Source: a virus. Taken from it: 64,000 nt of DNA. Shown one piece after another: positions 26,502 through 50,729 of the stretch (the stretch's first letter is position 1; each line of letters starts with the position of its first letter). The DNA lies in IMG/VR virus record IMGVR_UViG_3300018080_000122, positions 1 through 64,000 of that record. One strand, 5' to 3'. The position numbers were made by a program, and so were the translations under genes. The notes under the pieces were generated by a model. It was not told the DNA's origin and did no database searches. It saw only the letters and a list, made by a program, of their open reading frames with translations.

Positions 26502-29174
26502 ATGAAGCTGTTATATCCCAATATGGAGGATATTGCTCACCAAGTCAGTAAAGCAGACGAGTTCTCGTTTGATATTGAATGTTTCGCCCCTGGAGAGGGC
26601 GCCGGGAAGCTGGAACACTTGGACCCATTCAAGACGCAGATAGTAGGTATATCCCTAGCCACGAAGCACAACGCCTGGTACATCCCGTTCGGTGTAGACC
26701 CCAAGACAAACAAGAAGTACGCGCCCTTCCTGGAGTTCAAGAGGATCTTCAAAGATATCTTCTTAGACAAGGACAAGCGTGGGGTTGCCTGGAGTTGCAA
26801 ATTTGACTATAAGATCTTGACATTCAACGACTTACAGATAGACAACGAGCTGGTTGACCCCATGATCGCCTCGTTCCTGTGCGACGAGAACTTCCCACAC
26901 GGACTAAAGGCCACCACGGCGCGTGAGCTTGGAATTCTACAGACTAAAATCACGGAAGTGTGGGACAACCCGTATTCACAGGAGTTCTTTGATTATGGTC
27001 GTGATGACGCCATCTACACGCTCAGACTATGGAAGGAGGTCTTCGAGCCGCGTTTGGCCGAAGAGGGAATGGAGAAGCCGTTCTGGGCTTTCGAGATGCC
27101 GTGCGTCAAGATCGCGGCCGAAATGGAAATGAACGGCATCTTGATGGACGTGGCCTACATCAATGACTACGTGATCAAAGCTACGGGGCAGTTGAAGAAG
27201 ATCGAAGAGGATCTCTTCAACATGGCCGACAAAGAGTTCAATATCAATTCTCCCAAGCAGATTGGTGCCATCATGTTTGGGGACGCAGTAACGGGCGAAC
27301 CGGGTCTGGGCCTCCCAACAAGCTGCACGTCCAAAGGAAAACCCATCGGTAAAGCTGGTATTCGCTACTGGAAAACGAATGAAGCCGTCCTGCAGAGATT
27401 GGCCCTCCTGAAAATTCCTGAAGCGGAGTTCCCCAGGCTGATCTTGAAGTACAGAAAGATCACCAAACGTATCAGCACATACTGCCGCCCCTACCTGGAT
27501 AAGTACACCAAGACCGGGGACGGCCGCATCCATTGCTCCTTCAATACGATCGGTACCGAGACAGGACGATGGTGCGTAGCTAAAGGTACCCCTGTGGAGG
27601 TTCTTAGAGACGCTAACGCGTTCCCAAAAGGGATTCCTATTGAAGACGTCAAAGCAGGGGACCTGGCCTACACCTATGATGATAATCTTCAACTGACACT
27701 TAAGAAGGTGAAGTGGGTTGGAAAAACAGGAAATAAACCTGTAGTGCGTGTTCATTGGAGAGGGCAAGGACGTAAGCACACAGGTTACGTGGATTTGACA
27801 GAAGACCACGAAGTCAGATTGACAACGGGGATCTATGTCCAAGCCAAAAATCTGGTGCCAGGTGATTCCATACTGGCTCTACACAGATCCAAAGACAAAG
27901 ACGGCTACCAAAGGATGTGGGCCACAAACGAAGGTGAAATACAAAGAGAGCATCGTTGGGTATACGAGAAAATTCATGGCGGTATCCCATGGGGAACATA
28001 CGTTCATCACGAAGATGAGAATCGGAGCAATAACAAGTTAGATAACCTAAAAGCAATGCCTGTATTCGATCACCAGTCCATGCACTCCAAAAAGGTCGCT
28101 CACGCCAGAAGTTTACCCACTAAGCTGGCGCAGAGATACGTCGGTAAGAATTACTACAAATTCAAGGAATTACAAGAATATTTCGGCTTCGTGAATCCCT
28201 ATAACCACACTGTCGTAAAGGTTGAAAGATTGCCTGGGACTGTGGATGTCTACGATATGGAGGTTGAGGACACACACAATTTCATTGCCGGGGAGTTGTG
28301 CGTTCACAACTGTTCAAGAAATCCCAATATGCAGAACCTTCCCCGTGCCTCTAAAGAGTTTTCGTTGCGACGTGCTGTGATTGCTGAAGAGGGTTTCTAT
28401 ATCCTCAGCTCGGACTTTTCCCAACTCGAAATGAGGCTTATGGCAGAGGTTTCCATGGACCCTGTCCTCATAGAGATCTATAAACGCAACGGCAAATGCG
28501 ACTGCGCGACGTGGAAGGCGTCTTACGCTAAGGACCCGGAAGAGCCGCGATGCCGTCACGTTGACGTTCACACCAGGACTTCTGAAGACGCCAAGATCTC
28601 TAGACAGGACGCCAAGCCCTTGAATTTCGGCGCTATCTATGGAATGGGTTGGAAGGCCCTGATTGCCCAGGTCTTCAAGTTCACTGGCGGGACCAGGATC
28701 ATCTCCGAGGCACAGTCCAAGCACATGCTCCGCTCTTTCTTCAACACCTACAGGAATGTGAAGCGCTACCATAACTGGGTGAATGAGCGCTGCATTGACA
28801 GAGGGTGGATCAAAACGCTCCTTGGGCGTAAGCGCCGCATTTTCCACGTGGACAAAAGCGACTGGCGTAGTAAAGGCGCGGCCTTCCGTGAGCTCACGAA
28901 TGCAAGTGTCCAAGGCAGCGCAGCAGACATTGTTATGTTAGCCCTGCGCAACGTTGCCAGAGAGCGTGATGCTCGCGCTAAAGAAGATCCACGATACGCA
29001 CAGTGCAAGTTCATCTCCATGGTGCACGACGAAATGATTATGGAAGTTCCCATCGAAATCGCCAAAGAGATGAAGGAGATGGTCGTCTATGAGATGAACA
29101 ATTGTGTGAAGCTGAAGCATGTCCCGCTCGCCAGTAACTGCGGCATTGGGCCGAGTTGGGGCGACGCTCACTGA
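26502..29174 (+). CDS. family A DNA polymerase with 3'-5' exonuclease, intein-containing
   Basis: FDIE ExoI, TETGRW...NPNMQNLP, DFSQLEMR (motif A), KPLNFGAIYG (motif B), VHDE (motif C). Confidence 0.95.
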   Translation: MKLLYPNMEDIAHQVSKADEFSFDIECFAPGEGAGKLEHLDPFKTQIVGISLATKHNAWYIPFGVDPKTNKKYAPFLEFKRIFKDIFLDKDKRGVAWSCKFDYKILTFNDLQIDNELVDPMIASFLCDENFPHGLKATTARELGILQTKITEVWDNPYSQEFFDYGRDDAIYTLRLWKEVFEPRLAEEGMEKPFWAFEMPCVKIAAEMEMNGILMDVAYINDYVIKATGQLKKIEEDLFNMADKEFNINSPKQIGAIMFGDAVTGEPGLGLPTSCTSKGKPIGKAGIRYWKTNEAVLQRLALLKIPEAEFPRLILKYRKITKRISTYCRPYLDKYTKTGDGRIHCSFNTIGTETGRWCVAKGTPVEVLRDANAFPKGIPIEDVKAGDLAYTYDDNLQLTLKKVKWVGKTGNKPVVRVHWRGQGRKHTGYVDLTEDHEVRLTTGIYVQAKNLVPGDSILALHRSKDKDGYQRMWATNEGEIQREHRWVYEKIHGGIPWGTYVHHEDENRSNNKLDNLKAMPVFDHQSMHSKKVAHARSLPTKLAQRYVGKNYYKFKELQEYFGFVNPYNHTVVKVERLPGTVDVYDMEVEDTHNFIAGELCVHNCSRNPNMQNLPRASKEFSLRRAVIAEEGFYILSSDFSQLEMRLMAEVSMDPVLIEIYKRNGKCDCATWKASYAKDPEEPRCRHVDVHTRTSEDAKISRQDAKPLNFGAIYGMGWKALIAQVFKFTGGTRIISEAQSKHMLRSFFNTYRNVKRYHNWVNERCIDRGWIKTLLGRKRRIFHVDKSDWRSKGAAFRELTNASVQGSAADIVMLALRNVARERDARAKEDPRYAQCKFISMVHDEMIMEVPIEIAKEMKEMVVYEMNNCVKLKHVPLASNCGIGPSWGDAH
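27573..28310 (+). mobile_element. intein (246 aa) with HNH homing endonuclease in the DNA polymerase
   Basis: Begins CVAKGTPV, ends VYDMEVEDTHNFIAGELCVHN|C; internal VHHEDENRSNNKLDNL. Confidence 0.9.
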
Positions 29175-29890: not shown

Positions 29891-30538
29891 ATGACCAAAG
29901 ATGATTACAAGAGGTATTTAGCCAGCGACCATTGGAAGGAGACCAGAAAGGCTGCGTTGGCGCGCGCCAAATGGAAATGTCAATTGTGTTGTAGTTTTAA
30001 AGATCTCAACGTGCACCACCGGACGTATGCCAACCTGGGTCACGAAGAGGATTGTGATCTGACAGTGTTGTGTAGAGACTGCCATGCTAAATTCCACGGT
30101 GACCTACCAAAAGCGTCTCCAGATAGCAATAAAGATAAACCACTTGTAACGCTTGCCATGTTTTGTACCTCAACGCCGAAGCCAAATGATGTGACCATCA
30201 ACGGCAAACTGCTGCCGAGGCGCACCTCAAATTTACTAAAACGAGATGACGCTTTAAAGGATACAGTAGTAGAGTACTCCAGGTTACTTAATGCTAGAGT
30301 GCCTTATAATTACACACTGTCCCACAAAGAGGTAATAACAGCCAAGAAGATACTGGAGCGCGTAGGCAACCCAGAGACAGTGCTAGACTTCTACCGTTGG
30401 GTATTTAGAGAATGGGACGGTCCCATCATAAAGAGCCTATCTGGAGTGTGTGATATACACACGCCAACGCTCCACGTGCTGTTGGGTTTCACTTCTATAC
30501 TAGACTGTTTTTATGAGCGCAAACAAAACCGTGGATAA
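29891..30538 (+). CDS. HNH endonuclease fused to a paralog of the replication-initiator C-terminal domain
   Basis: CQLC..LNVHH.TY...LTVLCRDCH; FYRWVFREW...PTLHVLLGF matches 8615..10135. Confidence 0.8.
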   Translation: MTKDDYKRYLASDHWKETRKAALARAKWKCQLCCSFKDLNVHHRTYANLGHEEDCDLTVLCRDCHAKFHGDLPKASPDSNKDKPLVTLAMFCTSTPKPNDVTINGKLLPRRTSNLLKRDDALKDTVVEYSRLLNARVPYNYTLSHKEVITAKKILERVGNPETVLDFYRWVFREWDGPIIKSLSGVCDIHTPTLHVLLGFTSILDCFYERKQNRG

Positions 30539-30541
30539 GAT

Positions 30542-31057
30542 ATGGGCCTGAAGATAGAGGCAGTTCTAGGTAGAAAAATATATCAACTGATATGCGATGA
30601 TTGCTTCGCTGAAGGCCCTATTTCCATCAGCATAGACCGCCTCATTAAAAAGAAGGAAAAAGCCCACTGGAAGATGTGGAACAACAATGGCCTGTGGCGT
30701 GTCAAGTGCGCTGACTGTAGCCGTGGCATGTTCAGAGACGAAACGGGCACCAGAATCTGTATTCAGTGTGGCCGTGCTTTCTACCCCTCCAAACCCACCG
30801 TCAAGCGCTGCTCCCCAGAATGTAGCCAGAAGTCACAGAGGAAAGCGGAGCGACCCACAAAGGCACGACTACGTGAACTGGTATGGGAAATGCCGACCAC
30901 AGACGTGGCCAAAATGTTCGGCGTCAGCGACAAGGCCGTCTCTAAATGGTGCAAAAAGTATGAGATAGAGAAGCCTCCTCGCGGATACTGGGCGAAGCAA
31001 AAAGCTGATAAAAAAACGAAAAAAAGACTAGCAAAACGTGTAGTCCTGCTACAATGA
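30542..31057 (+). CDS. Zn-finger/HTH protein
   Basis: Several CxxC motifs, CSPEC, and an HTH-like segment TDVAKMFGVSDKAVSKWCKKYEI. Confidence 0.6.
   Translation: MGLKIEAVLGRKIYQLICDDCFAEGPISISIDRLIKKKEKAHWKMWNNNGLWRVKCADCSRGMFRDETGTRICIQCGRAFYPSKPTVKRCSPECSQKSQRKAERPTKARLRELVWEMPTTDVAKMFGVSDKAVSKWCKKYEIEKPPRGYWAKQKADKKTKKRLAKRVVLLQ
31015..31056 (+). repeat. left copy of a ~41-bp promoter-like direct repeat flanking the CRISPR-Cas cassette
   Basis: AACGAAAAAAAGACTAGCAAAACGTGTAGTCCTGCTACAATG. Confidence 0.85.
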
Positions 31058-31059
31058 AT

Positions 31060-31330
31060 TAGGGCCAGAAGAAACTAAGATTTCAACTGTCCCTTGCTGC
31101 TTGACAATTGGCTATTGGGTATCCTGCCAACCCAAAGGGGGAGGAGGGGAATTGCATCGGCATTTCCCATGACGCCTCCCCGAAGCGAGCGGGCTTCATG
31201 GCACTGGCCTAAGATCATTCGGTGGTGCCATGAAGTGAGCAGGCCCTGGTAAGACTTGGAGCCCGCATCCATTACTAGGGAGCACTAGTCGAGCGGCTAC
31301 ATCGTGCTGAAATACGTGGGTTCACTCGCA
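31060..31330 (+). ncRNA. candidate tracrRNA/scaffold-like structured RNA
   Basis: No credible ORF, lies behind a TGnTACAAT -10; stems TTGGGT/ACCCAA, GGGGAGG/CCTCCCC, CTTCATGGCAC/GTGCCATGAAG (31194-31235), GCGGGC/GCCCGC, ACTAG/CTAGT. Confidence 0.5.
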
Positions 31331-31476
31331 GCAATATAACTCAAACAATCACAAGTAGTTACTACACGGATCATACACATAGATAGTGTAGGTGCCCTAA
31401 CAATAGCAGCACATACACATACACGCTCGAAAACACTACCATAAACCCATGACAGTATTGAAAATACGACGTGGGG

Positions 31477-32971
31477 GTTTCAGCTGCTAAATGAATCTTT
31501 CAGTGCTGCAGGACCACCTACGTGATGCTTCGATACGGCGGAGACCTTACGTTTCAGCTGCTAAATGAATCTTTCAGTGCTGCAGGCAGGCTCTCAAAGA
31601 GAGGCACCCCGACATTGCAGCGGAGTTTCAGCTGCTAAATGAATCTTTCAGTGCTGCAGGTACATAGGTTATACTTGCCTTTATGTTTTATGGGCATTTC
31701 GTTTCAGCTGCTAAATGAATCTTTCAGTGCTGCAGGTCCCCAGGAGCACTGGCGCGCCCATGTCAGGCCTGTGTTTCAGCTGCTAAATGAATCTTTCAGT
31801 GCTGCAGGGTTCGAAGCAGATACCTTCTCCGCATACATTGACGCCGTTTCAGCTGCTAAATGAATCTTTCAGTGCTGCAGGTCTCACCCTCATCGCCCAC
31901 CCACGTTCGACGTCAGCAGTTTCAGCTGCTAAATGAATCTTTCAGTGCTGCAGGAATGGGGCCTTGCGGCCCTTCGCAACCAAAACAGGGTTTCAGCTGC
32001 TAAATGAATCTTTCAGTGCTGCAGGTATTAGAAGACCAACCAAGGCAGGTATGGGGATTGGTTTCAGCTGCTAAATGAATCTTTCAGTGCTGCAGGGACC
32101 AGAACTCTACTCAGGATTTATCGGCGTGGCCAAGTTTCAGCTGCTAAATGAATCTTTCAGTGCTGCAGGGCCTGCTCCTTGGCCTGCTGCTTGGCCACCT
32201 TGGCGTTTCAGCTGCTAAATGAATCTTTCAGTGCTGCAGGGTGCTGGACACCTGCATCCGTCTCCCACTCGGCCAGTTTCAGCTGCTAAATGAATCTTTC
32301 AGTGCTGCAGGTGCTAACCTTTCGGTCCAGCGGCCTATCAGCATGCTTCTTGTTTCAGCTGCTAAATGAATCTTTCAGTGCTGCAGGAGAGCCGCCTGGA
32401 TGATGCCAGACGCTTCCCGCCACGCAGTTTCAGCTGCTAAATGAATCTTTCAGTGCTGCAGGTCTGTCGAACCTGTCGCCTAATCTACTGCCAGTTGCCT
32501 TCGTTTCAGCTGCTAAATGAATCTTTCAGTGCTGCAGGTGGCTTGCCACAGCAAGCTCTCTACGATCTCTAGGCGTTTCAGCTGCTAAATGAATCTTTCA
32601 GTGCTGCAGGAATCCCTGGTATTTCCTTCTTCTTAGCCATTCTCTAGTTTCAGCTGCTAAATGAATCTTTCAGTGCTGCAGGTTAAAACACCAATCTTAG
32701 ACGCGTATGACAGGAGAGTTTCAGCTGCTAAATGAATCTTTTAGTGCTGCAGGCCGTTCCTCGAATCAAAGTATTTTCCAGGTGGCTGTTTCAGCTGCTA
32801 AATGAATCTTTCAGTGCTGCAGGGGATTCTTCCTGGAGTAGACTCTGGCCGTGGCGTTCACTGTTTCAGCTGCTAAATGAATCTTTCAGTGCTGCAGGTG
32901 GCTACTCATCGTCTGCCTGCCCCGCTTTCTTCTTCGTTTCAGCTGCTAAATGAATCTTTCAGTGCTGCCGG
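31477..32971. CRISPR. CRISPR array: 21 repeats of 36 bp and 20 unique spacers of 34-40 bp
   Basis: Repeat GTTTCAGCTGCTAAATGAATCTTTCAGTGCTGCAGG; single-base variants at repeat 18 (32718) and repeat 21 (32936); degenerate partial copy at 33001-33022. Confidence 0.98.
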
Positions 32972-33044
32972 GATTAACGCTGTTTACCAACGCTGAAAAA
33001 GTTTACGCTGCTAGACTCATCTAGCAGATGGAAAGGAGTTTCTA

Positions 33045-34577
33045 ATGGATAAAAGCAAGAGAATACTAGCTGTTTTACGTGCTGATTTGGGTCTGCCTAC
33101 ACTTAATAAAGATAAGAGGCAGGAGTGGGCCGCCAAAAGCACGACGTCCGCAAAGCGCCTACTACAGCAGTCTGACGAGTTTGAACTCATACGGGAACGT
33201 CTGGCCATACTGCGCAACCTCTCCCATCGTGTGCACAACAAAGCAATGACTAGCATTTACTTCACCAAAAAGACTAATTATCTAAAATCCAAGAAAGGTG
33301 AATCTGGAGTAAACGCGCAGTCCCAAGCCTATAGAGATGTGCTGAACGATAATGACGATCCTTTAGCGTCACATCTCAAAGATCAAGGCGTCCCAACAGG
33401 ATTTATAACGACTACAATAAATTTTGTCTCGCAGTGTTACAACAAAACCAAGGAAAAGCAGGTCAACATGGGCGACCAATCTCTACCATCATGGAAGTAC
33501 CCCAGCCCTGTAAGTTTTGCACGAGCGCTGTGGCGTGTAGAGAAGATGGATTATGTAACTATGGACGGTACCGTCAAGAAAGTCGACGCCATACGAGTGC
33601 CTTTGTGGAGCAGAGACGCAGCTAAAGACGCCGGGAGGAAAGGCACTAGTAAATGCTCAGCGTGTATCCCCATATTCCCTCCAACCAAGAACAAAAACGG
33701 TAAGAAGATAGCCCACAACGATTATTGGTGGGCAAGGTTCAAAAAGCTGCTAGATAACGCCAGCGCACAAGGTGGCCTCAAAATAATCTGGGACAAAAAG
33801 AAGAAAAAATGGTGCGCCCTCATATCTGTGTATGAGGACAAAGCAGAGCCGTCCACAAAAAACAAAATCCTTGGAGTAGACATCGGAATCACTAACCCGG
33901 TCGTGTGTGCCGTTGGCCACGGTTGGGGAGTTAAGTTCATAGGGAGCAAGCGAGAAATGCTTAGAAAGAAAGGGTATTTCAAAAATAAAATTAGGGAGTG
34001 CGGCCGCTCCAGCAAGGGCAGAAAGTGGGTTCCTGGTAATGGTGGTCGGGGGTTCAAACGGCGCAACAAAAAAATGATGCAAATACAGAACGCGGCGGCC
34101 AGATACTGTAACACCAAGTGCCAACAATATGCCGCTAAGGTGGTCAAGATGTGCAAGAATTTGGGATGCGGCATCATAGCCATCGAGAAATTCAGAAAAT
34201 CTCCTGTTAAACAAGCCCAGGAGAAGTCCGCCAATGACAGGGGATACGTTGAGAAGAAAGTGCTAATGTGGCGCCCATATCTGATGCATATGGCCATTAT
34301 CAATGCAGCTACTCGCGCAGGTATACAAGTTATTCAGGTAGACGCTGGGTACACATCACAGAGATGCGCGCAATGCGGATGCATACTTAAGGCTAACAGG
34401 GACGTCAATAATGCCCAAGAGTTTTGTTGCCAGAAATGTGGGCATAAAGAAAATGCAGACGTCAATGCTGCCCGTAACGTGGCGCAGCAAGCCGCAGGGG
34501 AGTGGAAGGCCCCCAAAAAGATCAAAACCAAATCCAACGCAAAAAACAAAATCAAGGCCAATAAAAAGATAGGGTAA
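33045..34577 (+). CDS. compact type V effector, Cas12f/TnpB-like RuvC nuclease (510 aa)
   Basis: GDQSLPSWK (Cas12f-like), RuvC-I LGVDIG, RuvC-II IAIE, YTSQRCAQCG...CQKCG Zn finger, RuvC-III NADVNAARN; 73 bp from the array. Confidence 0.85.
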   Translation: MDKSKRILAVLRADLGLPTLNKDKRQEWAAKSTTSAKRLLQQSDEFELIRERLAILRNLSHRVHNKAMTSIYFTKKTNYLKSKKGESGVNAQSQAYRDVLNDNDDPLASHLKDQGVPTGFITTTINFVSQCYNKTKEKQVNMGDQSLPSWKYPSPVSFARALWRVEKMDYVTMDGTVKKVDAIRVPLWSRDAAKDAGRKGTSKCSACIPIFPPTKNKNGKKIAHNDYWWARFKKLLDNASAQGGLKIIWDKKKKKWCALISVYEDKAEPSTKNKILGVDIGITNPVVCAVGHGWGVKFIGSKREMLRKKGYFKNKIRECGRSSKGRKWVPGNGGRGFKRRNKKMMQIQNAAARYCNTKCQQYAAKVVKMCKNLGCGIIAIEKFRKSPVKQAQEKSANDRGYVEKKVLMWRPYLMHMAIINAATRAGIQVIQVDAGYTSQRCAQCGCILKANRDVNNAQEFCCQKCGHKENADVNAARNVAQQAAGEWKAPKKIKTKSNAKNKIKANKKIG

Positions 34578-34578
34578 T

Positions 34579-34619
34579 AACGAAAAAAGACTAGCAAAAC
34601 GTGTAGTCCTGTTATAATG
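34579..34619 (+). repeat. right copy of the promoter-like direct repeat
   Basis: AACGAAAAAAGACTAGCAAAACGTGTAGTCCTGTTATAATG. Confidence 0.85.
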
Positions 34620-35081
34620 TATAGAGCGAACAGGAACCGCAACCAGATGGAGTATTTCAGATCCCAAACCATGTTCAGGTGCACGGATCGTGTGAACTGC
34701 AACCACCGGCGGCAGGTATTCGGTCAAGGTTTGTGGGCGCAAGAGCAGGATAGGCCATGAGGCTCCAGTTCAGCAGACAGGTGGCTCCGCGAGTATTCGT
34801 TGCCGTTGGATGGCTGGCCGTGATGTGGTGGGGATGGGATAACGGCAGACTAGAGATCAGGTGGGATTGGAGATGAGCATCTTGCACGATACATCCGTTG
34901 ACTACTACGGCATTTTCGATAAGGCGTCCGCCGCTGATGACATCAACATGGTCGTGGTGGATGTCAGCCTCGATCCAGCGGACGGTCAGTGGCATATCCT
35001 CGTAAGGTCAGACGATCTGGATGTGAGCCGAGCGCGTCGTAGGTGGGAGACTGCTATCGAGAAGCGCAGGATGGAGAAGTC

Positions 35082-48923: not shown

Positions 48924-50729
48924 GTGCCCAGAAAACGAGATAGGAAAATAGTGCCGCCCGCCATGCAAGAGAAACGCATGGATGGTGTTGCATCTTCGCG
49001 GCGGCACGAAACCCGTCTCAGCAAGAAGTTGGGTAAAAACGCCCATCGTCAGAGAGCCTCCGGGGCGCGGCAGGGTAAAAAAGGGGATATTGACTGGTGG
49101 GGCGACGGCGAAGATTGGTGGCGCTCCGTCAAGGTGGAAAATAAAACCACCGTGAACAAGGACAAGAAGTCATTTTCTATCAAGAAAGCACATCTAGAAA
49201 AGATAAGCAAAGAAGCAGCGGTGCATGACATGCTTCCTATGATGGCTTTTGAGATTCCTGGAATGACTACGCTAACACCACGAGATTGGGCGTTGGTGCC
49301 CATCCATAGTGAGGATGCTATGAAGAAAGTGCTTGCAGGACTCTCTAAAAATAGGAGACACGAGCCGCCGCCCCCGAAAGTTCGCCACAAGAAAATGCCT
49401 GGGTCGGCAGATTTTTTCAACAAGACGCTCTACGATTTCTTGAAAAAGCGAGCAGTGTACGGGACCAGGCAGCGTGAAGATGGTCTCCTTCACGTATCGG
49501 AGATGTATGACTTCTGCCCCAGAAGAGAAGTGTTCAAAATCTCTTTCAAAGGAGGCAGAAAAGATCCTCCAGATCCAGGCCTGCAAATGATCTTCGACCA
49601 TGGCACCATGACCCATTATTGGTATCAGAATGCTTATATGGGGCCAGCTGGACACCTGTGGGGCACATGGAAATGCGTTGCGTGCGGAGACACCAGGGAG
49701 GGTGTGATGCCGTCTAAACCCTGCCAGTGTTCTATTGACGAATGCGGGAGCGAGTGCACGCCCGACCCAGAAATTGGATGCCGCATGTGCGTGGCTGAGG
49801 GCATGCTCATATCCACAGAGACGGGGCCTGAGCCGATAGAGGACATTATCGCGGGCGTAAAAGTGTGGACGCACGAGGGGCGCTTACGTGAAGTCACAGG
49901 GGTATGGAAAGAACACAGCAGGCGGGAGACAGTGTCCATCACTGTTTACGACTGTATATATCCAGTGCTGCTCACAAAAGATCACCCGGTTCTCATCGAA
50001 GTTGATGGAGCCTTTGAGGATATGGACGCAGGCGATGTCAGAGTAGGCGACACAGCGTTCTTCTTGAATAACGGAAAACCTTCCCGCACTGAAGTCGTTT
50101 CTGTAGCGGAAGGTCCTCCCCAAGCAGTGTGGAACATGGAAGTGGCCCAAGATGCCTCATTCTATGCGGGCGAGATTTTGGTGGGTAATTGCACCACTTG
50201 GGGTAGATGGGAATTCGTAGAGCCTAGAGTATTCTTCAAGAAGTACGGCGTCATAGGATCATGCGACGGTGTGCTTATGAATCTCCCAGGAGATAAGAAG
50301 AAAAAGCGTGTTTGGGAAATAAAGACGATACACATGGAGGCCTTCAAGCGCTTATCATTTCCATACACTAAACATATAGCGCAAGCTAGTCTGTATGGTA
50401 TAGGGCTGGGCGTGGAAAACTTGATGATGACTTATATCCCAAAAGGCGACATGGGTGAACCGCCCAAGGCTTTCCGGCTTGAGACAGATGAAGGTTTGGC
50501 CTACGAAGCGCTAGGCAAAGCTGAAAAATTCTGGAACGCCATCAAGAGAGGATTGTTACCACCAAGATTGTGCAATGCCAGGACAGCTCCCAAGGCAATC
50601 AAGTGCCCCCACAAGAAGATCTGTTTTACCAACACAGCCGAAGCCGACGTCAAGAAGATCTTACAAGAGAAGAAGGAAGAGGGAGAGCTGGAATGGGTGA
50701 AATCATCATTGGAGTTGATCCAGGGATAA
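48924..50729 (+). CDS. PD-(D/E)XK resolvase-like domain fused to a Cas4-like PD-(D/E)XK exonuclease, with mini-intein
   Basis: SGA..GKKGDI...VENKTT; HVSEMYDFCPR, HG...H, GSCDG, WEIKT, HIAQASLY, C...CPH...C. Confidence 0.75.
   Translation: MPRKRDRKIVPPAMQEKRMDGVASSRRHETRLSKKLGKNAHRQRASGARQGKKGDIDWWGDGEDWWRSVKVENKTTVNKDKKSFSIKKAHLEKISKEAAVHDMLPMMAFEIPGMTTLTPRDWALVPIHSEDAMKKVLAGLSKNRRHEPPPPKVRHKKMPGSADFFNKTLYDFLKKRAVYGTRQREDGLLHVSEMYDFCPRREVFKISFKGGRKDPPDPGLQMIFDHGTMTHYWYQNAYMGPAGHLWGTWKCVACGDTREGVMPSKPCQCSIDECGSECTPDPEIGCRMCVAEGMLISTETGPEPIEDIIAGVKVWTHEGRLREVTGVWKEHSRRETVSITVYDCIYPVLLTKDHPVLIEVDGAFEDMDAGDVRVGDTAFFLNNGKPSRTEVVSVAEGPPQAVWNMEVAQDASFYAGEILVGNCTTWGRWEFVEPRVFFKKYGVIGSCDGVLMNLPGDKKKKRVWEIKTIHMEAFKRLSFPYTKHIAQASLYGIGLGVENLMMTYIPKGDMGEPPKAFRLETDEGLAYEALGKAEKFWNAIKRGLLPPRLCNARTAPKAIKCPHKKICFTNTAEADVKKILQEKKEEGELEWVKSSLELIQG
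49788..50189 (+). mobile_element. mini-intein (134 aa, no endonuclease)
   Basis: CVAEGMLISTETG...LTKDHPVL...VWNMEVAQDASFYAGEILVGN|C. Confidence 0.85.

What the first reader, a model, noticed from the sequence alone, without database searches (positions are those of the whole stretch)
31057..34577. Phage-encoded miniature type V CRISPR-Cas (Cas12f-like, 510 aa) with a 20-spacer array and no adaptation genes
Seen: an array of 21 near-identical 36-bp repeats directly followed by a TnpB/Cas12f-like ORF. All three RuvC catalytic positions (D in GVDIG, E in IAIE, D in NADVN) and the Zn finger are intact. No cas1/cas2 or TnpA lies next to it. Established: large phages carry minimal CRISPR systems that borrow host adaptation machinery, and Cas12f nucleases are compact and usually tracrRNA-dependent. 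Inference: an active and possibly new compact type V lineage used against competing mobile elements. Several spacers read like phage coding sequence, e.g. the reverse complement of 32611-32646 gives MAKKKEIPG. Repeat homogeneity suggests recent acquisition.
Basis: partly seen in the sequence, partly recalled or inferred. Interest (0 to 1): 0.8.

Follow-up and report, generated by a model that had tools for sequence, protein, structure and literature searches.

The report
Phage Cas12f CRISPR system, 20 spacers
A large sediment phage carries a real miniature CRISPR system (a 20-guide array, an intact 510-aa Cas12f-type DNA-cutting enzyme and probably its helper RNA); it is a divergent new member of an already known kind of phage-borne mini-CRISPR, and its targets are still unknown.

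Summary
There are 21 repeats of 36 bp (19 identical) and 20 spacers of 34-40 nt at 31477-32971. A 510-aa ORF follows at 33045-34577. Its confident AlphaFold model matches solved Cas12f1 nucleases (AsCas12f, OsCas12f, SpCas12f1) over its full length, better than it matches TnpB. D279/E381/D472 and the CCCC zinc ribbon are intact. The 115.6-kb phage record has no cas1, cas2 or tnpA.

The protein is an orphan: the best relative among about 15 billion proteins is 36% identical. It sits in a clade whose 16 other members all lack the RuvC-I aspartate.

The most likely layout is one plus-strand operon: an extended -10 promoter (31047-31055), a strongly folded ~270-nt RNA ending in a 20-bp anti-repeat (31304-31332), a leader, the array, then cas12f. 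An inverted degenerate repeat at 32989-33030 pairs better as minus-strand RNA and keeps a minus-strand model alive.

No protospacer, PAM, host or RNA data were found, so "aimed at rival elements" is untested.

Phage type V systems without adaptation genes are published, and this scan has noted many phage Cas12f loci on other DNA. Verdict: a new member of a known kind, of moderate interest.

The parts
31020..31059 (+). Left copy of a 40-nt direct repeat that brackets the cassette. It contains the extended -10 promoter TGCTACAAT (31047-31055), giving a predicted start near 31062. On the minus strand the same bases scan as a hairpin followed by a T7 run (31051-31029).
   Evidence: Searches show only two copies in 115.6 kb, 37/40 identical. 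One search finds TGNTAYAAT 8 times on the plus strand and 0 times on the minus strand (about 3 expected per strand), and three sites share TGCTAYAATGAA.
31062..31303 (+). Candidate tracrRNA scaffold: a multi-stem structured non-coding RNA that begins at the predicted transcription start.
   Evidence: plus strand -111.5 kcal/mol, z -3.5, 0/200 shuffles fold as well; minus strand -100.2 kcal/mol, z -2.2. No Rfam family matches. The only ORFs (52 and 65 aa) lack a ribosome-binding site and look spurious.
31304..31332 (+). Candidate anti-repeat A. Three nested helices (8+7+5 bp, 4 G:U) pair with repeat nt 30-23, 22-16 and 11-7.
   Evidence: Searches give a gain of -10.4 kcal/mol, with p about 0.015 per random 41-nt window and 3.3% for 286-nt windows. 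Read as minus-strand RNA the gain is only -5.1. The C25>T variant in repeat 18 keeps a G:U pair here.
31333..31476 (+). A/C-rich, 58% A+T leader between the structured RNA and the first repeat.
31477..32971 (+). CRISPR array: 21 repeats of 36 bp and 20 spacers of 34-40 nt. The degenerate terminal repeat lies at the cas12f-proximal end.
32989..33030 (.). Inverted, degenerate copy of the repeat in the 73-nt trailer (candidate anti-repeat B). On the plus strand it contains an 8-bp hairpin (33008-33027) just before the ribosome-binding site.
   Evidence: as minus-strand RNA it forms 22 bp with the reverse-complement repeat, -13.5 kcal/mol, 0/300 and p about 0.002. As plus-strand RNA the gain is -8.1 (p about 0.05); trailer plus last repeat fold to -36.6 (z -4.5) on minus versus -25.4 (z -0.4) on plus.
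33045..34577 (+). cas12f-like gene, 510 aa, with WED-REC-WED-RuvC-TNB(Zn)-RuvC organisation, D279/E381/D472, and a Lys-rich C-terminal tail.
34583..34622 (+). Right copy of the bracketing 40-nt direct repeat, with TGTTATAAT (34610-34618). It is the likely promoter for the genes downstream.
   Evidence: Two of the three differences from the left copy lie inside the promoter element and both keep or improve it (TACAAT>TATAAT); one of them weakens the minus-strand hairpin.

Best explanation
This is a self-contained type V-F-like (Cas12f1/V-U3 branch) CRISPR-Cas cassette in a phage of roughly 160 kb from sediment. It is most likely expressed as one plus-strand operon. An extended -10 promoter at 31047-31055 starts an RNA near 31062. 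That RNA holds (i) a ~270-nt multi-stem scaffold ending in an anti-repeat (31304-31332), which would be the tracrRNA, (ii) a leader, (iii) the 20-spacer pre-crRNA, and (iv) the cas12f mRNA. By analogy with solved Cas12f1 enzymes, the tracrRNA would pair with each repeat, and the duplex would be cut and loaded onto Cas12f. The complex would then find PAM-flanked double-stranded DNA matching the 5'-proximal ~18-20 nt of a spacer, the stretch next to the repeat, and cut it in the single RuvC site (D279/E381/D472). Because the phage has no cas1/cas2, new spacers must come from host machinery or by recombination. Targets are presumably other mobile elements or host genes. Shown here: the array, the intact Cas12f fold and motifs, the absence of adaptation and transposase genes, the structured RNA, and the promoter motif. 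Inferred: the RNA strand, the identity of the tracrRNA, the dimer, cleavage, and the targets.
For: The array is real and unique to this locus. Sequence profiles support Cas12f: Pfam Cas12f1-like_TNB at 1.8e-16, and PADLOC Cas12u3 at 8e-53 and Cas12f at 9e-50, both nearly full length. The best solved relatives are AsCas12f chains at 2e-27. The AF2 model (pLDDT 89.6, pTM 0.85) matches AsCas12f, OsCas12f and SpCas12f1 at E 1e-24 to 1e-20 with TM 0.72-0.78. TnpB structures reach only 1e-12 to 1e-8. The catalytic triad and zinc ribbon are intact. No cas1, cas2 or tnpA is present. Evidence for the plus strand: the degenerate repeat is at the cas-proximal end. TGNTAYAAT occurs 8 times on plus and 0 on minus, one of them placed to start the RNA at the first stem. 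No separate promoter for cas12f is seen in the 73-nt trailer, so cas12f needs read-through of the array. The scaffold folds 11 kcal/mol better on plus. Anti-repeat A sits at the scaffold's 3' end. A 26%-identical Cas12f-like locus (L002) has the same order of structured RNA, 9-nt anti-repeat, AT-rich leader and array. Spacers read on plus are pyrimidine-rich (purine 0.43, p 0.01), as expected beside a T/C-rich 5' PAM.
Against: Anti-repeat A is only marginally better than chance (p about 0.015 per window, not corrected for the number of windows near the array). The competing inverted repeat copy at 32989-33030 is statistically stronger and favours the minus strand. Read on the minus strand, the repeat ends in GAAAC, as the relative's repeat in L002 does. 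There are no RNA reads, no protospacers and no PAM. All 16 other members of the 17-member clade around this protein lack the RuvC-I Asp, including its two nearest relatives, so cutting cannot be assumed from family habit. There is no close homologue, so no covariation test of the RNA was possible.
Confidence: 0.6

Rival explanations
1. Same Cas12f system, but the guides are made from the minus strand. The inverted degenerate repeat at 33030-33005 would be the anti-repeat, lying just upstream (in minus sense) of the array. crRNAs would end in ...CUGAAAC followed by the spacer. The transcript would run through 31476-31060 and stop at the hairpin plus T7 run at 31051-31029.
For: The pairing gain is -13.5 kcal/mol, matched by 0/300 random windows, p about 0.002. 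Trailer plus last repeat fold at z -4.5 on minus versus -0.4 on plus. A terminator-like site lies on minus at 31051-31029. The repeat's GAAAC end resembles that of the L002 relative.
Against: No structured scaffold lies 5' of this anti-repeat on minus; the region is antisense to the cas12f coding start and has z -0.14. No minus-strand promoter lies near it; the only hit is about 520 nt away inside cas12f. TGNTAYAAT is absent from the minus strand genome-wide. The degenerate repeat would be leader-proximal. The repeat-18 variant breaks a pair in this model. cas12f expression appears to need plus-strand read-through of the array, which would give sense/antisense collision. Only two G:U pairs create the strand asymmetry.
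Confidence: 0.2
2. The system mainly binds DNA rather than cutting it, acting as an RNA-guided silencer of host or rival genes, as proposed for naturally nuclease-dead Cas12f relatives. The intact triad would serve only RNA processing, or would be a recent reversion.
For: P0001 is nested (support 0.79-0.82) in a 17-member clade where all 16 others lack the RuvC-I Asp. Most carry a VHRG-type His, and the two closest relatives have H/G/E at all three sites. Natural dCas12f regulators are published (PMC12259090).
Against: All three catalytic residues and the zinc ribbon are canonical in P0001. The array is long (20 spacers) and diverse, which fits interference better than regulation of a few promoters.
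Confidence: 0.12
3. The array and the TnpB-like gene are not a functional pair. Either the array feeds host Cas proteins (a phage array that hijacks host CRISPR), or the ORF is an ordinary transposon TnpB, or the locus is a decaying relic.
For: No adaptation genes are present. The NCBIfam guided_TnpB subfamily model just passes its cut-off, 101 versus 100 bits. No targets were found.
Against: No tnpA is present. The fold and profiles are Cas12f rather than TnpB. The gene starts 73 nt after the array, on the same strand. Repeats are nearly uniform and the ORF is intact. No bacterial genome in the 185,579-species set carries the repeat's 21-mer as an array; the single match was a chance hit. Two other Cas12f-like relatives also sit next to arrays: L002 and the solved Cas12f proteins.
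Confidence: 0.05

Closest known systems
Type V-F1 Cas12f1 of the former V-U3 branch (AsCas12f, OsCas12f, SpCas12f1; PDB 7wju, 8dzj, 8j12, 9nzq, 9i8y)
   Same: It has the same full-length fold (TM 0.72-0.78) and the same WED-REC-RuvC-TNB order, an intact D-E-D triad and CCCC zinc ribbon, a size of 400-530 aa, and sits next to a CRISPR array without cas1/cas2. A long structured RNA with an anti-repeat lies beside the array (PMC12255294 describes the 156-nt tracrRNA and homodimer of SpCas12f1).
   Different: Identity is only about 20-22%. There is an extra N-terminal helical insert (about residues 22-45) and a clade-specific insert after RuvC-II. The tracr-array module lies upstream of the gene rather than between the gene end and the array, which is where a preprint (10.1101/2023.02.03.527072) says it usually lies. 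The locus is on a phage. The scaffold candidate is about 270 nt.
Published phage-encoded miniature type V systems: Cas12j/CasPhi, Cas-lambda, Cas12 'hacker' (10.1101/2025.01.20.633832) and Cas12r of Thermus Lalka phages (10.64898/2026.04.20.719267)
   Same: All have a phage-borne single effector plus array with no adaptation genes, are presumed to act in conflicts between mobile elements, and are compact.
   Different: Those effectors are other Cas12 branches. CasPhi, Cas12p and Cas-lambda structures match this model only at E 1e-8 to 1e-9, or on the C-terminal part alone. Cas12r is reported to need no tracrRNA, and by my recollection the same holds for CasPhi and Cas-lambda. Cas12r arrays are short, whereas this one has 20 spacers.
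Naturally nuclease-dead Cas12f (dCas12f-sigmaE and CRISPR-linked dCas12f; PMC12259090; PDB 9n9c)
   Same: They belong to the Cas12f family, and the 16 other members of the clade around P0001 carry RuvC substitutions.
   Different: P0001 keeps all three catalytic residues. It is longer (510 versus about 350 aa) and is not next to a sigma factor. The 9n9c chain does not appear among the PDB sequence hits of P0001 (E up to 1); it matches the relative P0059 only at 1e-4.
IS200/IS605 TnpB with omega-RNA
   Same: They share the RuvC-TNB core, and the NCBIfam guided_TnpB subfamily model is just met.
   Different: There is no tnpA and no element ends were seen. A CRISPR array takes the place of a single 3' guide. 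The fold is closer to Cas12f than to ISDra2 or ISFba1 TnpB.

Membership tests
Type V-F CRISPR-Cas12f (V-F1 / V-U3 branch) | Single TnpB-derived effector of about 400-700 aa with a split RuvC (D-E-D) and a TNB zinc ribbon | tested here: met
   The protein is 510 aa, with D279/E381/D472 and C441/C444/C462/C465 in conserved columns. Pfam Cas12f1-like_TNB scores 60.5 bits against a cut-off of 26.3.
Type V-F CRISPR-Cas12f (V-F1 / V-U3 branch) | Full-length similarity to Cas12f profiles and structures, stronger than to TnpB | tested here: met
   PADLOC Cas12u3 scores 178 bits and Cas12f 168 bits over about residues 50-485. Foldseek gives AsCas12f, OsCas12f and SpCas12f1 E 1e-24 to 1e-20, against TnpB at 1e-12 to 1e-8.
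Type V-F CRISPR-Cas12f (V-F1 / V-U3 branch) | Gene lies next to a CRISPR array | tested here: met
   A 21-repeat array ends 73 nt before the ATG, on the same strand.
Type V-F CRISPR-Cas12f (V-F1 / V-U3 branch) | A long structured tracrRNA whose anti-repeat pairs with the repeat | tested here: inconclusive
   There is a structured RNA at 31062-31303 (z -3.5) with a 20-bp anti-repeat A (p about 0.015). A rival anti-repeat B lies on the minus strand (p about 0.002) but has no scaffold. There are no RNA data and no homologous loci for covariation.
Type V-F CRISPR-Cas12f (V-F1 / V-U3 branch) | Asymmetric homodimer on one guide RNA | not testable with these tools
   The protein-only dimer prediction returned 'no answer', which is not evidence either way. 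RNA-protein modelling is not available.
Type V-F CRISPR-Cas12f (V-F1 / V-U3 branch) | PAM-dependent dsDNA cleavage | not testable with these tools
   No protospacer was found, so no PAM could be derived. This needs a wet-lab assay.
Cas12f2 (V-F2, Cas14b) | NCBIfam NF049972 at or above its cut-off | tested here: not met
   The score is 87 bits against a cut-off of 450, and only the C-terminal half aligns.
IS200/IS605 or IS607 TnpB | Association with tnpA or transposon ends, and a single omega-RNA guide at the 3' end of the gene | tested here: not met
   No Y1 transposase is present in the record. The IS200_TnpB and IS607_TnpB models score 36-37 bits against cut-offs of 425 and 350. A CRISPR array is present instead. 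Element ends were not searched for exhaustively.
Naturally nuclease-dead Cas12f (dCas12f) | Substituted RuvC catalytic residues | tested here: not met
   P0001 has D/E/D. Its relatives P0059 and P0060 have H/G/E.

The most novel reading that the evidence does not exclude
The 3.5-kb unit (promoter, tracrRNA, 20-spacer array, cas12f) bracketed by 40-nt promoter-bearing direct repeats may be a portable CRISPR 'moron' that moves between phages by recombination at that promoter. Its effector would be a nuclease-competent survivor or revertant within a largely phage- and plasmid-borne Cas12f clade that otherwise replaced the RuvC-I aspartate. The inverted degenerate repeat in the trailer would be a built-in device that sequesters the last repeat, preventing a self-targeting extraneous crRNA and/or releasing the cas12f mRNA.
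Probability: 0.15. Interest if true: 0.6.

Novelty: new member of a known kind. Interest (0 to 1): 0.45.

Why it matters
If active, this is a compact (510 aa) RNA-guided nuclease from an unsampled Cas12f lineage. It comes with a natural 20-guide array and a one-promoter tracr-array-cas layout, which would interest groups developing small genome editors. It also adds a case of a sub-200-kb phage with a long CRISPR array; a 2024 review calls CRISPR rare in phages of that size (PMC11656645). Finally, it gives a catalytically intact reference point inside a clade of RuvC-substituted Cas12f relatives. That could help date and explain the repeated switch between cutting and binding in this family. 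It does not open a new category, because phage type V systems without adaptation modules and Cas12f biology are both well described.

Tried and rejected
- Near-identity search of 24 kb of the window against 50,697 phage records: no match.
- Relatives of the protein in IMG/VR, using P0001, the clade alignment A2 and P0061: none.
- The repeat 27-mer in IMG/VR: none.
- The repeat 21-mer in 185,579 species genomes: one single-copy chance hit in a Chthonomonadaceae MAG, not an array.
- Protospacers:
  - The whole array against phage and plasmid records gave only a weak low-complexity hit of spacer 10.
  - Exact degenerate patterns for spacers 1, 2, 4, 5, 14, 16, 18 and 19 in IMG/VR found nothing. 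The other 12 spacers were not scanned there.
  - There is no self-target in the 115.6-kb record.
- Sequencing runs: no RNA holder is listed. The only good holder is a sediment DNA run whose contigs break at the array.
- Homodimer prediction: no verdict.
The 167-kb contig carrying the identical protein and the contexts of relatives P0059-P0066 could therefore not be read.
- An alignment of 14 homologues was too divergent for a genome scan.
- Rfam: no family matches the structured RNA or the repeat.
- A Smith-Waterman pairing scan over the whole genome did not single out either anti-repeat, so energy-based tests were used instead.
- The 65-aa minus-strand ORF inside the structured region was rejected as a gene: it has no ribosome-binding site and an odd composition.
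- From memory, the repeat resembles type II-C and Cas12 repeats that begin with GTT. This was not used as evidence because it could not be checked.


Full report
**What is there**

The window is the first 64 kb of a 115,571-bp IMG/VR virus record that CheckV rates about 71% complete. The identical protein is also recorded on a 167-kb contig. The neighbouring genes are phage replication and recombination genes:
- a DNA polymerase interrupted by an HNH segment;
- two HNH/HTH endonuclease-like ORFs;
- a helicase;
- a UvsX-like recombinase;
- a RuvC-resolvase/Cas4-like exonuclease carrying a Hint domain.

Almost every gene from 8.6 to 59 kb is on the plus strand. The DNA polymerase is at most 30% identical to that of any isolated phage, so the host is unknown. 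The only good DNA holder is a sediment metagenome.

**The array**

There are 21 copies of a 36-bp repeat at 31477-32971. Nineteen are identical, copy 18 has C25>T, and the last copy has A34>C. They separate 20 unique spacers of 34-40 nt. The repeat occurs nowhere else in the record. Spacers average 54% G+C against 51% for the phage, and range from 33 to 69%. Read on the plus strand they are pyrimidine-rich: purine fraction 0.43, 15 of 20 below 0.5, p = 0.01.

**The protein**

ORF 33045-34577 gives 510 aa. The sequence evidence is:
- Pfam finds the Cas12f1-like TNB domain.
- NCBIfam places it just inside the guided-TnpB superfamily model and far below the Cas12f2, IS200 and IS607 TnpB cut-offs.
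- PADLOC's Cas12u3 and Cas12f profiles match nearly end to end, at 8e-53 and 9e-50.
- The best solved relatives by sequence are AsCas12f chains at 2e-27. ISDra2 TnpB does not appear.

An AlphaFold model built on 150 homologues is confident, with pLDDT 89.6 and pTM 0.85. Foldseek ranks AsCas12f, OsCas12f and SpCas12f1 first (E 1e-24 to 1e-20, TM 0.72-0.78). Un1Cas12f follows at 1e-15, TnpB at 1e-12 to 1e-8, and other phage Cas12 types at about 1e-8 to 1e-9. D279, E381 and D472 and the four zinc-ribbon cysteines occupy the conserved columns. I file it as a divergent Cas12f1 of the V-U3 branch.

**How isolated it is**

A full HMMER pass over 1.84 billion cluster representatives found 4,873 relatives. 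Only three reach E <= 1e-30, and the best (P0059) is 36% identical. All close relatives are unnamed metagenomic singletons.

In a FastTree of the 150 best hits, P0001 groups with P0059 and P0060 (support 0.82). These sit inside a 17-member clade (support 0.79). All 16 other members lack the RuvC-I aspartate. Most read V-H-R-G at that position, and P0059 and P0060 have H/G/E at all three sites. These relatives still match Cas12f structures best. P0001 is therefore the only member of that clade, among the 150 best hits, with a canonical triad.

One 26%-identical relative could be seen in context (L002). It is a 476-aa Cas12f-like gene on a plasmid- or ICE-like contig, followed by a structured intergenic region, a 9-nt anti-repeat, an AT-rich leader and a 7-repeat array. 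No other cas genes lie nearby.

**No adaptation or transposition genes**

Cas1, Cas2 and Y1-transposase profiles find nothing in the record, while the controls work. The record is incomplete, so absence from the whole phage is not proven. The Cas4-like domain 15 kb away sits in the recombination module and is not evidence of an adaptation module.

**Expression and guide strand**

A 40-nt direct repeat occurs exactly twice in the 115.6 kb, at 31020-31059 and 34583-34622. It brackets the cassette. Each copy carries an extended -10 element, TGCTACAAT on the left and TGTTATAAT on the right. The pattern TGNTAYAAT occurs 8 times on the plus strand and never on the minus strand, against about 3 expected per strand. 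Three sites share TGCTAYAATGAA. Two of the three differences between the copies lie in this element and keep or improve the promoter, and one of them weakens the minus-strand hairpin. A start near 31062 coincides with the first stem of a strongly folded RNA:
- plus strand -111.5 kcal/mol, z -3.5, 0/200 shuffles as stable;
- minus strand -100.2 kcal/mol, z -2.2.

At its 3' end, bases 31304-31332 can form three nested helices (20 bp) with repeat nt 30-7. The gain is -10.4 kcal/mol, with p about 0.015 per window. The repeat-18 variant keeps a G:U pair in this duplex. I see no separate promoter for cas12f in the 73-nt trailer. The degenerate repeat is at the cas-proximal end. Together these favour a single plus-strand operon in the order tracrRNA, leader, array, cas12f. 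This is the same module order as in L002.

**The complication**

The trailer (32989-33030) is an inverted, degenerate copy of the repeat. As minus-strand RNA it forms 22 bp with the reverse-complement repeat, at -13.5 kcal/mol. None of 300 random windows matches that, and p is about 0.002. The trailer plus last repeat fold at z -4.5 on minus but -0.4 on plus. Read on minus, the repeat ends in GAAAC, like the L002 repeat. The left bracketing repeat also scans as a minus-strand terminator.

Against a minus-strand guide model:
- The RNA 5' of this anti-repeat would be antisense to the cas12f coding start and shows no structure (z -0.14).
- No nearby minus-strand promoter is seen.
- The asymmetry rests on two G:U pairs.
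- The repeat-18 variant breaks a pair.

If the plus model is right, the element may sequester the last repeat, either to avoid an extraneous self-matching crRNA or to mark a processing site that frees the cas12f mRNA. That is speculation. I put about 0.6 on the plus-strand operon with the upstream tracrRNA and about 0.2 on the minus-strand model.

**Targets**

None were found. Searches of phage and plasmid records with the whole array, exact degenerate-pattern scans of IMG/VR for 8 spacers, and the phage's own sequence were all negative. No bacterial genome in the species set carries the repeat as an array. The ideas that the system attacks rival elements and borrows host adaptation proteins remain reasonable, and there is published precedent for Cas12r (10.64898/2026.04.20.719267) and in a review (PMC11656645). 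They are untested here.

**Comparison and novelty**

Phage-encoded type V effectors with arrays and no adaptation genes are published: CasPhi, Cas-lambda, Cas12 'hacker' and Cas12r. Cas12f1 biology is well described, including the homodimer on a ~200-nt guide RNA (PMC12255294). Natural nuclease-dead Cas12f proteins are also known (PMC12259090). This scan's own notes list many phage Cas12f-like loci on other DNA, mostly nuclease-dead and often with a tracrRNA fused upstream of the array. Those are leads and were not checked here.

What is particular to this locus:
- the long 20-spacer array in a phage below 200 kb;
- the depth of the lineage;
- an intact active site inside a clade of RuvC-I variants;
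- the promoter-bearing direct repeats around the cassette;
- the inverted repeat copy in the trailer.

I rate it a new member of a known kind, with interest 0.45.

Noticed in passing
window 2547-2618: A tRNA with a CUA anticodon (amber suppressor; ARAGORN labels it Pyl, Rfam tRNA scores 61 bits) lies in a phage whose ORFs otherwise read open under table 11.
   Followed up: partly
proteins P0059, P0060 and 14 others (alignment A3): The 16 other members of the 17-member clade around the window's Cas12f all lack the RuvC-I Asp. Most read V-H-R-G there while keeping E and D, and P0059/P0060 have H/G/E at all three sites. They still match Cas12f structures best. This may be an uncharacterised Cas12f branch with altered or lost nuclease activity. 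Their genomic contexts could not be read.
   Followed up: partly
L002 5647-7745 (LSQX01213186.1): A plasmid- or ICE-like metagenome contig (TraI_2, VirB11-like ATPase, M23/SLT) carries a 476-aa Cas12f/V-U3 protein (410 bits), a structured intergenic RNA with a 9-nt anti-repeat, and a 7-repeat array. An ordinary 371-aa TnpB sits right after it.
   Followed up: partly
window 26502-29174 and 48924-50729: The DNA polymerase ORF contains an HNH-endonuclease segment (residues about 460-535). The RuvC-resolvase/Cas4-like exonuclease ORF contains a Hint domain (residues 288-352). These are probable inteins or homing elements in replication genes. Two further HNH/HTH ORFs (29891-31057) abut the CRISPR cassette.
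   Followed up: no
window 33367-33613: An identical 247-nt piece of cas12f (REC/WED part) is the only perfectly matching contig in two other public metagenomes, a sediment sample from 2018 and a seawater sample from 2021, at depth about 2. The cause could be the phage at trace abundance, cross-talk between data sets, or a shared fragment; this is unresolved.
   Followed up: no
window 34514-34561: A 24-nt tandem duplication (1.9 copies) encodes the Lys-rich C-terminal tail of Cas12f. The model has low confidence there.
   Followed up: no
window 2721, 3842, 31047, 34610, 43659, 48659, 57939; genome 83364: The extended -10 motif TGNTAYAAT occurs 8 times, all on the gene-coding strand, and three share TGCTAYAATGAA. 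This is a likely promoter class for this phage or its host.
   Followed up: partly
window 31081-31100: The 5' part of the structured RNA holds a same-sense echo of the repeat (TTTCAACTG ... TGCTGC). It could pair with the 3' anti-repeat, reminiscent of the 'head-to-toe' stem described for the SpCas12f1 guide RNA (PMC12255294). This was not tested.
   Followed up: no
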